Shown: positions 36,408 to 42,379 of the stretch, piece by piece
How the letters are laid out: every line of letters begins with the position of its first letter
How positions within the stretch are numbered: position 1 is the first letter of the stretch
From: a virus
Lineage: Duplodnaviria; Caudoviricetes
Strand: one strand, 5' to 3'
Virus record (IMG/VR): IMGVR_UViG_3300037422_000298
DNA length: 64,000 nt
Notes under the pieces: model-generated
What the model saw: only the letters and a program-made list of their open reading frames with translations
Databases searched by the model: none
Told to the model about the DNA's origin: nothing
Translations under genes and position numbers: made by a program

Positions 36408-36658
36408 AGGACGAGAAGAAGGCTGCGCTCGAAGCGAATGGCTGGAAGGTCGGCGACGCTGCGCAGTTCTTGGAGATGTCCGAGGCCGAGAAGCAAGCGA
36501 GCCGTCTCATCCACAAGTACGGCCGCGACGGTGCGCTCAAGGCCGTCAAGCAGAACGTCAAGAAGGCCGTCAGCGAGGCCCAGGAAGAATTCTGGGAAGC
36601 CGTTGGCGACCTGATCGAAGAGACCTGCGAACGCCCCGAACAGGAGAACGTCTCGTGA
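36404..36658 (+). CDS. Small protein resembling the N-terminus of XRE-type antitoxins, no clear HTH
   Basis: KKAALEANGWKVGDAAQFLEMS. Confidence 0.4.
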   Translation: MKDEKKAALEANGWKVGDAAQFLEMSEAEKQASRLIHKYGRDGALKAVKQNVKKAVSEAQEEFWEAVGDLIEETCERPEQENVS

Positions 36659-37353
36659 CCAAGCTCATTCTCGCGCTCGACGTCCCGAGCTACGACGACG
36701 CGATGCAATTCGTCGAGTCGATCGAAGGCAATGTACACCTCGACTGGGTCAAGGTCGGCCTGGAGCTGTTCATCTCCGACGGTCAGCGCGTGATGGATGC
36801 AATGTCGAAAGCCGGGTTCAACATCATGCTCGATCTGAAGCTGCACGACATCCCGGAGACCGTCGCTCGCGCGACGGCGCGCGCAGCAGACCTTGGTGCA
36901 GACATGCTGACGATTCATGCCGCGGGCGGCCCGGCGATGATCGCAGCGGCGAAGAAAGCTGCGGGTGACACCAAGATCCTCGCGGTGACGGTTCTGACGT
37001 CGCTCGATGAAGACGACCTGGTCAAGATCGGTCACAGCCCGACGCCGCACAAGACGCTCGTACGCGACCTGGTTCTCCGGCGACTCCGACTGGCCGAAGA
37101 CAACGGTGCCGACGGCGTCGTCTGCTCGCCGCTCGAAGTTCAGACCCTCAAGATGAACGTGATCCGCGGGATGTTGTTCGTGACGCCTGGGATCCGTCCA
37201 TCGGGCGGCGACACGGGCGATCAGAAGCGCGTCGCCACGCCAACGGGTGCCCGCGAAGCGGGCGCGAGCTTCATCGTTGTCGGGCGGCCGATTCGTGACG
37301 CGAAAGACCGGGTCGCGGCCGTAAAGGGCATCCTGGCGGAGCTGACCACGTGA
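36655..37353 (+). CDS. pyrF: Orotidine-5'-phosphate decarboxylase
   Basis: LILALD, VKVGLELF, DLKLHDIPET (DxKxxD), AVTVLTS, VTPGIR, DQKR, VVGRPI. Confidence 0.95.
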   Translation: MTKLILALDVPSYDDAMQFVESIEGNVHLDWVKVGLELFISDGQRVMDAMSKAGFNIMLDLKLHDIPETVARATARAADLGADMLTIHAAGGPAMIAAAKKAAGDTKILAVTVLTSLDEDDLVKIGHSPTPHKTLVRDLVLRRLRLAEDNGADGVVCSPLEVQTLKMNVIRGMLFVTPGIRPSGGDTGDQKRVATPTGAREAGASFIVVGRPIRDAKDRVAAVKGILAELTT

Positions 37354-38308: not shown

Positions 38309-39166
38309 ATGTCACTAGGGGCATCGAGAACAACGAGCAGGGAGAACGAAGAGCACATGCGTACGCAGCAACAGCATCAGAGCAACGGAAACGGACACGT
38401 CCCCACGCGCGGTGACGTCATGAAGCGCGGGCGCGCAGCACTCGTCGACACCGACGAAGACGCGCCGCCCAAGCGGCGCGGGCGCCCGCCGAAGATGACG
38501 CCGTCGCCGGAAGTGATCGAGCTGCCCGCGGCGAAGGGCAGGAAGGGCAAGGCTGCCAAGGGTGCCGACAAGGGCGAGCTGTCGATCCCGGAGCTGGAGA
38601 CGGCCGAGATCACGTTCACGGTTCGCGGCCTCACGTCGCTGATCGTCCACCGCTTCGGCGAGAAGTCGCGCAAGCAGATGGAAGACAACCAGCAGGGCGT
38701 CGCGCGTCACAAGAAGGCGCCCAAGGTTCCCGAAGACGAATTCCGCAGCTCGCTCTACGTGATCGACGCGAAGAAGGGCATCTACGGCTTTCCGGCGTCG
38801 GGCTTCAAGAAGGCGATGGTCTCGGCGTGTCGCTACGCCGAAGGCGTCACGATGACGAGGATGCTCGGCGCGTTCCACATCATCGGCGATCTGCTGCCGA
38901 TCAAGGGTCCGCCGCCCAAGATGCGCACCGACGTCGTGCGCGTCGGCAAGTTCGGTTCGAAGACCTCGGACATCCGCTACCGCGGCGAGTTCACGGACTG
39001 GAGCGTCGACGTCAAGATCCTCTACAACGCCAGGGTTGTGAACAAGCAGGTGCTCGCTCACCTACTCCACCTCGCAGGCTTCTCCGTCGGCATCGGCGAG
39101 TGGCGTCCCGAGAAGTCGGGACAGTTCGGCATGTTCGAGCTGGCGAACAAGTCGGTCGGTAACTAG
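38309..39166 (+). CDS. Stand-alone Cas7/RAMP-like protein with disordered AT-hook N-terminus (alternative start 38357)
   Basis: ITFTVRGLTSLIVH (beta1), YGFPASGFKKAM (cf. IPGSSLKG), C-terminal Gly-rich loop GFSVGIGEWRPEKSGQFGMF; KRRGRPPK AT-hook. Confidence 0.7.
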   Translation: MSLGASRTTSRENEEHMRTQQQHQSNGNGHVPTRGDVMKRGRAALVDTDEDAPPKRRGRPPKMTPSPEVIELPAAKGRKGKAAKGADKGELSIPELETAEITFTVRGLTSLIVHRFGEKSRKQMEDNQQGVARHKKAPKVPEDEFRSSLYVIDAKKGIYGFPASGFKKAMVSACRYAEGVTMTRMLGAFHIIGDLLPIKGPPPKMRTDVVRVGKFGSKTSDIRYRGEFTDWSVDVKILYNARVVNKQVLAHLLHLAGFSVGIGEWRPEKSGQFGMFELANKSVGN

Positions 39167-39182
39167 TACTTCGTCGACGAGA

Positions 39183-39214
39183 AACGCCGTGATCGCAGCA
39201 GCGATCACGGCGTT
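39183..39214 (+). terminator. Perfect 14-bp hairpin after RAMP-like gene (terminator or array leader)
   Basis: AACGCCGTGATCGC-agca-GCGATCACGGCGTT followed by a pyrimidine-rich tract. Confidence 0.55.
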
Positions 39215-39279
39215 CGTGTTCGTTCTCTGAAAACCGTTGTTCCATCGTCGCGCAAGCAAGCGCGACGACGTCATGGTGA

Positions 39280-41814
39280 GGCAGTCAAGGTGCGGCGCTG
39301 CAGGGCTCGGCGTATCAGGGTCTGGCTCTGTAGGGTCCGGCAACGGTATGGTCGCGCACGGCAGTCCACGTACGGCACGGCGTTGTGTGTTTCGGCGTCG
39401 CAAGCTACGGCAGTCCAGGTCCGTTGCGGCTTCGTTCGTCGCGGCGCGGAAAGGTCGCGCTCGGCAGTCTCGGAATGTCAGTGCAGGTCTGGGTCAGGCC
39501 GCGTTTGGCCCGGCTGCGTTTGGCCCGTCAAGGTGCTGCAGGGCAGTCATGGTTCGGTGCTGCATCGCACTGCTTGGTGTCGTCGGGCTCGGTCCGACGC
39601 GTCGAGGTTAGGCAGTCTTGGTAGGGCTCGACGTGGTCCGTTCGCGCAAGGATCGTTCTGGCTTGGCGCGGTTTCGCAGTCTCGGTCGGGTGAGTCGCCG
39701 CTTGGTGCCGTTGGGCATCGCGCGGTCAGGCACGTCGAGGCAGTCATCGTTTGGTGAATCAGCGCTTGGTTCGTTGAGGCATCGTGCGGCATCGCAGTCA
39801 GGGAATCGCTGGGCAACGCTGGTCCAGGCAACGCACCGCTCGGCATCGCCGTCGAGGTTTGGCGCGTAATGGTTCGTCAAGGCTACGCATGTTTGGGTTG
39901 GGCCGTCTCGGCATGTTTGGATCCGGCTAGTCAGTGTACGGCTAGGCGCCGCGCGGTATGGAGAGGCAGTCAGGGTCTCGGCGCGGCAAGTCAGTGTACG
40001 GCTAGGCGCCGCGCGGTATGGAGAGGCAGTCAGGGTCTCGGCGCGGCAAGTCAGTGTACGGCTAGGCGCCGCGCGGTATGGAGAGGCAGTCAGGGTCTCG
40101 GCGCGGCAGTGCTGCGCCAGGTAGCGCATGTTCTGGCCGGGCTGTCAGGGTTTCGCATCGCATCGCAGTGCGCGATACGGCAACGTCCGTTTCGGCGGTG
40201 CGTGGTAGGGCAGTCTGGTTGCGGCAGCGTCTGTTCAGTCAAGGCATGTTGTCGTTCGGCAGTCAGGGCAAGTTCAGATCCGGCGTTGCTCGGCTCGGCG
40301 TGCGCCCGTTTCGTCACGGCCAGGTGCGGTTGGGCCGTCGTGTCGAGGCATCGCTACGTCCGTTCCGTCAGGGCGCGGCACGTCGGGGCCGTCCAGGTTC
40401 GGCGCGTCAGTGCTGGGTCCGACTTTGCGGGGCAGTGTCCGGCGGGGCATGACAGTCGAGGACAGGCTGGTCACGGTTGGTTACGGTCGTGCCTGGTTTG
40501 GCAGTCATGGTTTGGTTCGGTACCGCTGGTCTTAGTTGGTCATGCCCGGTCTCGACGTGGTTCGGCAGTCGCGTCTCGGTATCGGCAGTCTTGGTAGGTC
40601 AGCGTCGGTCTTGGCAGCGTTCGGTGTGATCGGGTTCGTTACGGCAGTCTGGGTCCGGCGAGGTTTGTCAACGCAGTGCACGGCAACGTACGTCTCGGTG
40701 GGGCAGTCAAGGCACCGCATCGCGGGTCTAGTTGCGTCTCGGTTCGTTTCATCTCGGCAAGGCATGGCCGTCTTGGCAAGGCATCGCCCGTTGCGGCGCC
40801 GTCCGGCCAGTTCTGGTTTGGTAGTGCGTCTTCATGGCAGTCGTGGCTTGTTCCGGCGCGGCCCGTTGTGGTGTTTCATTGCTTGGTAGGGCAGTCGCGG
40901 TTCGTTTCGGCAGCGCGCGTCTGCGTCCGGCATTTGCTCGGTTGGTCGCGGCAGCGGTATGGCCGTCGTGGTCCGTCGGCGTTTGTTCGGGCTAGTTATC
41001 GTCTCGCGCGGCTCGGCAGTTTCGTCTGGGATCGGTTCGGCCTGCTGGGGCAGCGCGTGGCATCGCATCGCATGGCCGTCTTGGTTTCGCACGTCAAGGC
41101 TCGACAGGTTCCGGCTAGGCGCCGTACGGTGCGGCCGTCTAGTCACGGTTGCGCTGGTCGCGGCAGTTTTCGGTTGGTCGCGGTAGTGCATCGTCCGGCA
41201 TCGGCGCGGCAGTCCCGTCGGGGCGTCGTCTCGCTTCGCAAGGCAAGGTCAGGCGAGGACTCGTTTGGCGAGGCAGTCATCGCCAGGTTCGTCGAGGCAG
41301 TGCGAGGCATGGATCGGTTCGGTGGAGTTCGGCGCGGCAGTCGCGGTAGCGCGGGGAAGTGCCCCGCTAGGCAAGGCGTCGCTCGGCGCGGTCAGGCAGT
41401 CCCGGCGCGTCACGCTTTGGCAGCGCTTGGCGGGGTACTGTGTGTCGAGGCAGGGCCGTCTGGGTTAGGTCCGGCGTGTCGCGGTTCGGTTCTTCACGCG
41501 AGGGTGCGGTACGGCATCGCAGTCTTGGATCGTCTCGGCATGGCCGGTTCCGGCAGAGCAGTTCACGGCTAGGTACGACGCGGCAGTCGGTCATGGTCAG
41601 GTGAGGATTGCATCGCAGTGCGCGGCGCCGCCGGGCGTGGCTGTCTTGGTCAGGCGAGGCTCGGTCTCGTGCGTCGCGGCGAGGTTTGGCAGTCTCGGCG
41701 CGGTGGCGTACGGCTCGACAAGGTTCGGCAAGGCCCTGCAGGGCAGTCATGGTTAGGTCCGTCGGGGCGTGATCCCGTGCGTCGCGGTCCGGCACGGCAG
41801 GCATGGCAAGTCGA
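39280..41814 (+). ncRNA. Non-coding GGY-NN pentamer array, about 42 units separated by GGCAGTC-like delimiters (putative guide-RNA array)
   Basis: About 43 delimiters (GGCAGTC/GGCCGTC/GGCTGTC/CGCAGTC) mostly spaced 49/54/59/64/69 nt (9+5n); 5-nt periodicity; G-rich, A-poor + strand; no credible ORF. Confidence 0.8.
39929..40108 (+). repeat. Three exact tandem copies of a 60-nt array segment
   Basis: 39929-39988, 39989-40048 and 40049-40108 are identical. Confidence 0.95.
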
Positions 41815-41839: not shown

Positions 41840-42379
41840 ATGGCGCGCGCAGCAACAAGGCAGTCTCGATCGCGGCAGCGATCTACGCATTGGACGTATC
41901 ACTTCAAGGCCGTCGAGGGCAGCCGGTACACCGATCAGGATGCACAGCGTATCGGTCCCGAGTTGACGCGTATCGCGCAACGCGATGGTGAAATTCGCCC
42001 ACAAGCCGTCGTCGACGAAGCACGCTCGCGGCGCTCGCCGTTTCACCGACATTTCCAATGGGACATCCAGAAGGCCGCCGAACAACACTGGCTCGACACT
42101 GCTGGACGGTTGATCCGCGCGATCAAGATCGAGGTCGTCAGCGGACCACAGCGTGCACCCAAGGAAGTCCGTGCGTTCGTCAAGATCGATCGCGCGACCG
42201 GTTATCGTCCGACCATTGAAGTGTTTCAGCGCGACGACTACCGCAACGCGGTGCTCTCGCGTGCACTCGAAGAGCTGGAAGTCTGGAAGAAGCGCTACGA
42301 GAACTTCGTCGACTTCAGCGAAATCTTCGGCGACGTCGCGCCGATCATTGTACAGGCTCAACAGCGGCTGCGAGCGTAG
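41840..42379 (+). CDS. Array-associated hypothetical protein
   Basis: Directly after array; TGC-TAGAGT extended -10 six nt before ATG; VVDEARSRRSPFHRHFQWD...AAEQHW..AGRLIR. Confidence 0.7.
   Translation: MARAATRQSRSRQRSTHWTYHFKAVEGSRYTDQDAQRIGPELTRIAQRDGEIRPQAVVDEARSRRSPFHRHFQWDIQKAAEQHWLDTAGRLIRAIKIEVVSGPQRAPKEVRAFVKIDRATGYRPTIEVFQRDDYRNAVLSRALEELEVWKKRYENFVDFSEIFGDVAPIIVQAQQRLRA

What the first reader, a model, noticed from the sequence alone, without database searches (positions are those of the whole stretch)
39280..41814. Two-level code in the array: 5-nt register with information mainly in the NN dinucleotides
Seen: delimiters at 39280, 39360, 39409, 39463, 39542, 39611, 39675, 39739, 39793, 39847, 39901, 39965 ... 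41688, 41742, 41796 (about 43). Most spacings are 9+5n (49, 54, 59, 64, 69, 79). Example 39542: GGCAGTC-at-ggttc-ggtgc-tgcat-cgcac-tgctt-ggtgt-cgtcg-ggctc-ggtcc-gacgc-gtcga-ggtta. The triplet is GGY or a close variant (CGY, GTY, TGY, GAY) with position 3 nearly always a pyrimidine, while the NN strings differ between units. A decaying microsatellite would not keep register while randomising two fixed positions. Inference: each unit encodes about 18-30 nt of specificity and the delimiter is a processing site.
Basis: partly seen in the sequence, partly recalled or inferred. Interest (0 to 1): 0.92.

Follow-up and report, generated by a model that had tools for sequence, protein, structure and literature searches.

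The report
Phage VIPR guide-RNA array, about 40 guides

Summary
Bases 39280-41814 form a strand-specific array of GGY-NN pentamers. Entropy is about 1.1 bits at positions 1-3 and about 1.95 bits at positions 4-5. The array is broken about every 49-79 nt by a one-base register slip at GGCA|GTC.

The upstream gene is a Vipr protein (HMM hit to PDB 36pp SUSP1 Vipr, E=8e-12; Csm3/Cas7 fold; RNA-contact residues conserved). The array matches the "staggered vrRNA array" of the VIPR preprints (bioRxiv 10.64898/2026.04.26.720920).

Three results made here show that the NN carry information:
- NN positions evolve at 8.5% against 19.6% for four-fold codon sites in a roughly 90%-identical relative.
- Reverse-complemented NN have the composition of codon positions 1-2 (r=0.79).
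- One guide (41458-41521), read with the published one-base-skip rule, matches 54 IMG/VR contigs exactly. Every match is in frame on IVALVDEATGYQ of P63C-domain proteins.

Nine other guides gave no convincing exact match. Transcription and processing could not be tested.

This scan has found VIPR arrays in at least eight other genomes. This is a new member of a known kind, with an unusually long array and no structured tails.

The parts
38309..39166 (+). vipr gene (P0001, 285 aa from the first ATG; relatives are called from 38357). Residues about 100-278 form the RAMP core. Residues 1-95 are a basic, low-complexity extension containing RGRPPK.
   Evidence: The family profile hits PDB 36pp 'SUSP1 Vipr protein' at E=7.8e-12. 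The AF2 model has pLDDT 91 and its best folds are Csm3/Cmr/Cas7 RAMPs. H17, R138, W178 and R179 of SUSP-type Vipr are conserved and D177 is E. It matches phrog_4652 and has no Pfam hit.
39183..39214 (+). 14-bp hairpin followed by a weak T-rich tail, between vipr and the array (terminator- or attenuator-like)
   Evidence: z = -3.2 for 39160-39300.
39280..41814 (+). Staggered vrRNA array of about 40 units. Each unit is GTC-NN, then (GGY-NN) x 8-14, then GGCA, and the next unit starts one base out of register.
   Evidence: There is no excess RNA structure and no Rfam family. The same architecture lies next to Vipr homologues in every viral locus with enough flank and in 39 of 51 genome loci, against 0 of 54 control phage loci.
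41458..41521 (+). Guide whose 12 NN (TG TA CC GT GC TC TC AC AG GC AC AT) are antisense to codon positions 1-2 of IVALVDEATGYQ
   Evidence: 54 exact matches in IMG/VR, all in frame with varied wobble bases. 7 of 7 tested ORFs are Pfam P63C. The codon before the motif is Gly, not Leu, so the terminal GGCA(G) does not pair.
39924..40108 (+). 60-nt tandem triplication inside the array (99% identical copies)
   Evidence: An otherwise identical contig (L073) has two copies.
41840..42379 (+). Candidate vap (vipr-accessory) gene, P0002, 179 aa
   Evidence: Homologues lie next to vipr in L001, L007, L008, L013 and L017 and in Gordonia and Mycobacterium phages. It matches phrog_15946. There is weak winged-helix-like fold similarity, Z 4-6. 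It is not detectably related to SUSP2 vap1.

Best explanation
This is the guide-RNA (vrRNA) array of a virus-borne VIPR system. By homology with the characterised SUSP1 and P. fulva systems, the + strand is transcribed and Vipr protomers (gene at 38309-39166) polymerise on the RNA, one per pentamer. Each protomer buries the GGY bases and presents the NN dinucleotides. The NN of one unit (9-15 pentamers, 18-30 nt of specificity) pair with a DNA strand while every third target base is skipped. This forms a gapped R-loop that blocks transcription of genes of competing phages or satellites. Because the skipped base falls on the codon wobble position, a guide effectively reads a peptide motif. The guide at 41458-41521 reads IVALVDEATGYQ of P63C-domain (Ant-like) phage proteins. 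Units are set apart by a one-base register break at GGCA|G, with no structured tails, so the array yields about 40 different guides. Shown here: the array anatomy, Vipr homology, selection on NN, the codon-like antisense composition, and one guide-target family. Inferred from the literature: RNP formation, the triplex/R-loop and silencing. Not shown: transcription, the position of RNA ends, and the host.
For: Vipr identity rests.

The vipr-plus-array module is conserved across viral loci and across 39 of 51 genome loci from many phyla, against 0 of 54 control loci. The register break GGCA|G(T/G)Y is shared by relatives.

Selection was measured against a roughly 90%-identical relative (L010). 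Substitutions per phase are 6.5, 5.6, 14.5, 8.5 and 8.5%, against 19.6% at four-fold sites. NN versus four-fold sites gives p=2e-9, and position 3 changes are almost all C<->T. In the P63C guide, L010 differs at three GGY positions and at none of the 10 shared NN.

Reverse-complemented NN composition correlates with codon positions 1-2 of the window's genes (r=0.79; direct r=-0.27). The per-guide log-likelihood ratio averages 3.75 bits against 3.73 simulated for all-antisense guides, and 29 of 33 are positive.

Target evidence: a pattern with 24 fixed bases has 54 exact IMG/VR hits. My estimate of the chance expectation is below 0.01. Seven other patterns gave 0 or 1 hit in the same collection. 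All 54 hits are in frame, in proteins 25-100% identical to one another, on contigs of 36-67% GC.

There is no self-target and no P63C gene in the window.
Against: Only 1 of 10 guides scanned gave convincing exact matches. The tools allowed exact matching only, whereas the preprint accepted 80% or more NN match. No RNA data could be obtained, so expression and cleavage at GGCA|G are unverified. The preprint itself did not report sRNA-seq for staggered arrays. The accessory gene is assigned by synteny alone and its fold match is weak. The selection estimate uses BLAST-aligned blocks (84% of the array), which favours conserved units.
Confidence: 0.9

Rival explanations
1. The same Vipr-vrRNA complexes act mainly on messenger RNA, as antisense binders, rather than on DNA. 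The guides would silence by blocking or destabilising transcripts.
For: The guides appear to be almost uniformly antisense to coding strands in codon register, and the P63C guide is complementary to the sense strand. That is what an mRNA-directed system would need. The structural preprint reports that VIPR can form a guide-RNA duplex with ssRNA targets.
Against: In the characterised systems, targets lie on both strands. Both strands silence a reporter, dsDNA is bound specifically, and ssRNA gives mostly incomplete filaments without the stabilising third strand. An antisense bias could also arise from how guides originate or from selection. Nothing here distinguishes DNA from RNA targets.
Confidence: 0.07
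2. The array is a protein-binding scaffold or sponge, like TRAP on (G/U)AG-NN repeats. Only the GGY triplets would matter and the NN would be unconstrained spacers.
For: This was my first reading. The triplet-plus-2-nt spacing, near-maximal NN entropy and rapid loss of alignability in relatives with 71-76% identical Vipr fit it.
Against: NN evolve more slowly than four-fold sites and more slowly than the Y position. NN composition is codon-like in antisense. One unit matches a protein motif exactly in 54 contigs. The protein is a Vipr, not a TRAP-like ring.
Confidence: 0.02
3. The stretch is a decaying pentanucleotide satellite, or it is protein-coding sequence, as automatic gene callers annotate it.
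For: Gene callers place ORFs of 222-298 aa inside the array. The G/T-rich strand has few stop codons.
Against: There is 5-nt and no 3-nt periodicity. The register is kept over 2.5 kb with recurring one-base slips at one motif. The array is conserved in association with vipr across phyla. NN are under purifying selection.
Confidence: 0.01

Closest known systems
VIPR systems with staggered vrRNA arrays (bioRxiv 10.64898/2026.04.26.720920, fig. S18)
   Same: A Vipr RAMP gene lies beside an array of GGY/NN pentamers on the same strand. Adjacent guides abut with a 1-nt overlap or register slip, with no tail between them. A small accessory gene is present. The context is viral. No guide targets the element itself.
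   Different: The array has about 40 guides in 2.5 kb. Arrays next to 39 other Vipr homologues sampled here span 300-775 bp, and the preprint describes a few vrRNAs per locus. The composition test suggests nearly all guides are antisense to coding strands, whereas the preprint reports targets on both strands. According to the preprint text, staggered arrays were not verified by sRNA-seq.
Type II VIPR of Escherichia phages SUSP1/SUSP2 (PDB 36pp; bioRxiv 10.64898/2026.04.26.720927)
   Same: The Vipr fold and the GGY-contacting residues are shared (H17, R138, D/E177, W178, R179). Both have 9-16 pentamers per guide, and the 1-nt-skip rule reproduces a natural target family.
   Different: SUSP-type vrRNAs are separate units of about 100 nt, each with a leader and a conserved pseudoknotted 3' tail, placed on both sides of vipr-vap1. 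Here there are no tails and no excess structure. Vipr identity is only about 23%. The accessory protein is unrelated to vap1. This Vipr has a 95-residue basic N-terminal extension.
Class 1 CRISPR-Cas backbone (Cas7/Csm3 on crRNA)
   Same: The RAMP fold is shared (Foldseek E about 1e-5 to Csm3/Cmr). The protein polymerises along a guide RNA with periodic base flipping, as described in the literature.
   Different: The period is 5 nt with three guide bases hidden, against a 6-nt period with one base flipped. There is no repeat-spacer array and no cas1/cas2 or other cas genes nearby. The system is carried by a virus.
TRAP-trp leader RNA ((G/U)AG triplets with 2-3 nt spacers)
   Same: A triplet-plus-dinucleotide period is read by a protein oligomer.
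   Different: In TRAP the spacers carry no information and the protein is an 11-mer ring of a different fold. Here the dinucleotides are the informative part.

Membership tests
VIPR system | Vipr protein: a minimal RAMP (RRM core, G-loop, thumb) homologous to characterised Vipr | tested here: met
   The profile of 30 homologues hits PDB 36pp SUSP1 Vipr at E=7.8e-12. tblastn reaches SUSP2 and Felixounavirus vipr. The AF2 model has pLDDT 91.4 with top folds Csm3/Cmr6/type VII Cas7.
VIPR system | Residues that hold the GGY bases (SUSP1 H17, R138, D177, W178, R179) | tested here: met
   Alignment A3: H, R, W and R are identical and D177 is replaced by E (GIGEWRP against GVGDWRP). The Y-pocket residues E71/M72/C173/T175 are not conserved.
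VIPR system | vrRNA genes: tandem GGY/NN (YNNGG) pentamers, about 9-16 per guide, beside vipr on the same strand | tested here: met
   units of 9-15 pentamers, starting 114 nt downstream of vipr, on the + strand.
VIPR system | GGY conserved and NN hypervariable between guides | tested here: met
   Entropy is 1.06/1.09/1.17 bits against 1.96/1.94 bits. NN strings of different units are unrelated.
VIPR system | Natural targets follow the 1-nt-skip rule, with skipped bases on codon wobble positions, in competing mobile elements | tested here: met
   Met for one guide: 54 of 54 exact IMG/VR matches are in frame in P63C-domain phage genes. Nine other guides gave none or one chance-level hit, with exact matching only. 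Antisense codon-1,2 composition supports the rule for the array as a whole.
VIPR system | No self-targeting by its own guides | tested here: met
   No match of 80% or more under skip 0-2 in the 64-kb window beyond the shuffled background. There is no P63C homologue in the window. Only 64 kb of a contig of up to 241 kb was available.
VIPR system | Adjacent vap accessory gene | tested here: inconclusive
   P0002 is syntenic with vipr in distant relatives. Its fold is weakly winged-helix-like (Z 4-6). It could not be matched to a named vap1-6 family and is not vap1.
VIPR system | vrRNAs are expressed, processed and bound by Vipr | not testable with these tools
VIPR type II (SUSP1-like) | Each vrRNA ends in a conserved structured 3' tail (pseudoknot); accessory gene is vap1 | tested here: not met
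   There are no tails between units and no excess folding energy. P0002 is unrelated to SUSP2 vap1. Compare the SUSP2 locus.
VIPR staggered-array architecture | Adjacent vrRNAs overlap by 1 nt, so the end of one marks the start of the next | tested here: met
   37 one-base register slips at GGCA|GTC-type junctions, matching the fig. S18 legend. The RNA ends themselves were not observed.
CRISPR-Cas | Direct repeats alternating with spacers, plus cas1/cas2 or an effector module | tested here: not met
   No long direct-repeat family other than a 60-nt triplication. No Pfam or PADLOC cas hits in neighbours. No Rfam CRISPR repeat.

The most novel reading that the evidence does not exclude
In this tail-less, roughly 40-guide array the one-base register break itself may define guide boundaries. 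A Vipr filament would stop where the 5-nt phase slips, and host nucleases would trim between filaments. The near-total antisense, in-codon-register bias of the guides, together with the interspersed gain and loss of units between 90%-identical viruses, may reflect a still unknown guide-generating process, for example capture from transcripts. The alternative is slow mutation and selection alone.
Probability: 0.15. Interest if true: 0.75.

Novelty: new member of a known kind. Interest (0 to 1): 0.35.

Why it matters
VIPR is a very recently described RNA-guided system proposed as an ancestor of CRISPR RAMPs. This locus adds an uncultivated, high-GC virus whose array is several times longer than those sampled elsewhere and has no structured tails.

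It also offers a clean natural example of a guide aimed at a protein motif (P63C / Ant-like) that stays matched across phages of 36-67% GC, because wobble bases are skipped.

Two analyses used here need no known target and could be applied to any VIPR array: substitution rates by pentamer phase, and the antisense codon-composition test.

On the practical side, automatic gene callers annotate false ORFs across such arrays.

Tried and rejected
- **First hypothesis.** I started from a TRAP-like oligomer on RNA with NN as free spacers. I rejected it after the Vipr hit and the selection, composition and target results.
- **Database searches on the region.** Rfam and tRNA scans found nothing in the window. 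Megablast of the region against GenBank phages found no match.
- **Protein family searches.** Pfam, NCBIfam and PADLOC gave nothing for either flanking protein.
- **Exact 1-nt-skip scans of other guides.**
  - 40840-40893 (decodes to L-K/N-I/M-TTGAG-K/N-T): 0 hits.
  - 40144 core: 0 hits.
  - 41746: 0 hits.
  - 41137 (HExxH-like decoding): 0 hits.
  - 40337: 0 hits.
  - 39797: one hit in a 32.5% GC contig, out of frame, taken as chance.
  - Metagenome scans of 40391 and 39546: 0 hits.
  - The first-stage decodings to a helicase Walker A and a kinase motif therefore remain unverified.
- **Local mismatch-tolerant search.** All guides against 746 kb of fetched loci under skip 0, 1 and 2 found nothing above shuffled controls except the P63C guide.
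- **Accessory protein.** Foldseek of P0002 against the PDB gave no match at E<=0.001. The VIA wide search gave only weak winged-helix-like rows.
- **Host identification.** Genome relatives of Vipr reach at most 50% identity and are spread over many phyla, so there is no host call.
- **Unavailable resources.** The whole genome and sequencing runs were not available.
- **Promoter scan.** No sigma-70-like site was found near the array.

Full report
**Observation.** The stretch 39280-41814 is a real, strongly non-random feature.
- Base identity at lags 5, 10 and 15 is 0.38-0.40, against about 0.23-0.29 at neighbouring lags. The coding DNA upstream shows only the usual 3-nt signal.
- The + strand is G- and T-rich (GC skew +0.14 to +0.19).
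- GGCAGTC occurs 26 times in the array, 3 times elsewhere on the + strand and 3 times on the - strand.
- A phase-tracking parse reads the whole region as G-G-Y-N-N pentamers. Entropies are 1.06, 1.09 and 1.17 bits at positions 1-3 and 1.96 and 1.94 bits at positions 4-5.
- The parse finds 43 register breaks. Of these, 37 are the same one-base slip, nearly always at GGCA|GTC, GGCC|GTC or CGCA|GTC.
- A unit is therefore GTC-NN, then 8-14 GGY-NN pentamers, then a 4-nt GGCA.
- Tandem Repeats Finder sees only a 60-nt triplication at 39924-40108.
- No Rfam family, tRNA or excess RNA folding is present in the array.

**What it belongs to.** The gene just upstream (38309-39166, P0001) has no Pfam hit but hundreds of relatives.
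- Every related viral locus with enough flank carries a 5-nt-periodic, G-rich array nearby on the same strand.
- Among genome loci from many bacterial phyla, 39 of 51 do, against 0 of 54 unrelated phage loci.
- A profile of the family hits one solved structure, PDB 36pp 'SUSP1 Vipr protein' (E=7.8e-12).
- The predicted structure (pLDDT 91) resembles Csm3/Cmr/Cas7 RAMPs.
[quoted passage not shown] They report the following: Vipr polymerises on vrRNAs made of alternating GGY/NN; the GGY bases are buried by the protein; the NN pair with DNA while one target base is skipped; natural targets are competing phages and satellites; and the skipped base usually falls on the codon wobble position.
- The residues reported to hold G1, G2 and Y3 (H17, R138, D177, W178, R179) are conserved in P0001, with D replaced by E.
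- The preprint also describes 'staggered' arrays in which neighbouring vrRNAs overlap by 1 nt (fig. S18 legend). That is the register slip seen here.
- The SUSP2 locus, read for comparison, has separate vrRNAs with leaders and structured tails, so this locus is not of that (type II) architecture.
- The downstream gene (41840-42379, P0002) travels with vipr in distant relatives, including Gordonia and Mycobacterium phages. It has at best a weak winged-helix-like fold and is unrelated to SUSP2 vap1. I call it a candidate vap on synteny alone.

**Do the NN carry information here?** Three independent tests say yes.

1. *Evolution.* A relative about 90% identical (L010) has a largely collinear array. 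In aligned blocks, substitutions per pentamer position are 6.5, 5.6, 14.5, 8.5 and 8.5%. Four-fold degenerate sites of seven flanking genes differ by 19.6%. NN are thus constrained (p=2e-9 against four-fold sites; p=0.001 against position 3). Position 3 changes almost only C<->T, as a pyrimidine pocket would allow. About three quarters of the guides are shared with L010. Two are still recognisable in a relative whose Vipr is 76% identical, while the rest of that array is unalignable. Units are gained and lost throughout the array, not at one end.

2. *Composition.* The reverse complement of the NN has the dinucleotide make-up of codon positions 1-2 of the window's own genes (r=0.79). The direct reading does not (r=-0.27), and other codon phases fit worse. 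Per guide, the log-likelihood ratio for antisense against sense averages 3.75 bits. Simulation of purely antisense guides gives 3.73, and 29 of 33 guides are positive.

3. *A target.* The 12 NN of unit 41458-41521 were written with one wildcard between dinucleotides, giving 24 fixed bases.
   - The pattern matches 54 IMG/VR contigs exactly.
   - All 54 sites lie in frame in ORFs of about 300-370 aa and encode IVALVDEATGYQ with varied wobble bases.
   - Seven of seven tested ORFs are Pfam P63C proteins, phrog_2384, with weak similarity to anti-repressor Ant.
   - The proteins are only 25-100% identical to one another and come from contigs of 36-67% GC.
   - The codon before the motif is Gly, so the terminal GGCA(G) is not part of the pairing, while all 12 full pentamers are.
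   - The window has no P63C gene and no self-match.
   - An earlier first-stage note on this genome had guessed this decoding from memory. It is now verified.

**Limits.**
- Nine further guides gave no exact match, or a single out-of-frame hit in a 32.5% GC contig that I treat as chance. The collection scans accept exact patterns only, whereas the preprint accepted 80% or more NN match, so this says little about those guides.
- The proposed Walker-A and kinase-motif decodings remain unverified.
- No RNA evidence could be obtained. Transcription, the promoter (none of sigma-70 type found) and cleavage at GGCA|G are therefore inferred.
- The host is unknown.
- The surrounding genes are mostly viral dark matter, with an integrase and a few PHROG hits.

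**Verdict.** This scan has already met it in at least eight other genomes. It is a new member of a known kind.

Points of some interest remain:
- The array is very long, about 40 distinct guides, against 300-775 bp in the other loci sampled.
- It has the tail-less staggered layout, which the preprint did not verify by RNA sequencing.
- The guides show an apparent uniform antisense orientation.
- One guide reads a protein motif across very diverse phages.

Noticed in passing
window 39924-40108; L073:1145-1269: The 60-nt block inside the array is present in three copies in the window. An otherwise 99.98-100% identical metagenomic contig (JGI 3300043185) has two. This is either real copy-number polymorphism or an assembly difference.
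   Followed up: partly
window 38309-38600: This Vipr has a basic, low-complexity N-terminal extension of about 95 residues that includes an AT-hook-like RGRPPK. SUSP-type Vipr and many homologues (about 195-215 aa) lack it; others carry similar extensions.
   Followed up: no
window 39290-41572; L073:1090-2733; L010:6982-7677: Automatic gene calls place 'hypothetical proteins' of 222-298 aa inside the array, because the G/T-rich strand has long stop-free frames. These are annotation artefacts.
   Followed up: partly
window 41859 and 41908: Two further delimiter-like heptamers (GGCAGTC, GGCCGTC) lie 49 nt apart inside the first 70 nt of the P0002 reading frame. That stretch codes for a poorly predicted N-terminus (pLDDT below 50). 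The 5' end of the accessory gene may overlap or derive from array units.
   Followed up: no
window 41212-41275: One guide has a strongly 'sense-like' NN composition (log-likelihood ratio -8.3 bits), unlike the other 32. It may target the opposite strand or a non-coding site.
   Followed up: no
window 39797-39850 and 40337-40390; L015:4382 and 3935: Two guides keep 19/20 and 18/20 NN bases in a relative whose Vipr is only 76% identical, although the rest of the arrays no longer align. These are long-lived guides whose targets were not found.
   Followed up: partly
window 36655-37353: An orotidine-5'-phosphate decarboxylase gene (Pfam E=4e-59) sits among phage-like genes about 1 kb upstream of vipr and is conserved in the related viral contigs. 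It may be an auxiliary metabolic gene.
   Followed up: no
Gordonia phage ODay MW534375.1 10361-11596; Mycobacterium phage Quico KR997968.1 37707-38689: Cultured actinophages carry adjacent homologues of both P0001 (vipr) and P0002, annotated as hypothetical proteins. They could serve as laboratory models for this vipr/vap pair.
   Followed up: no
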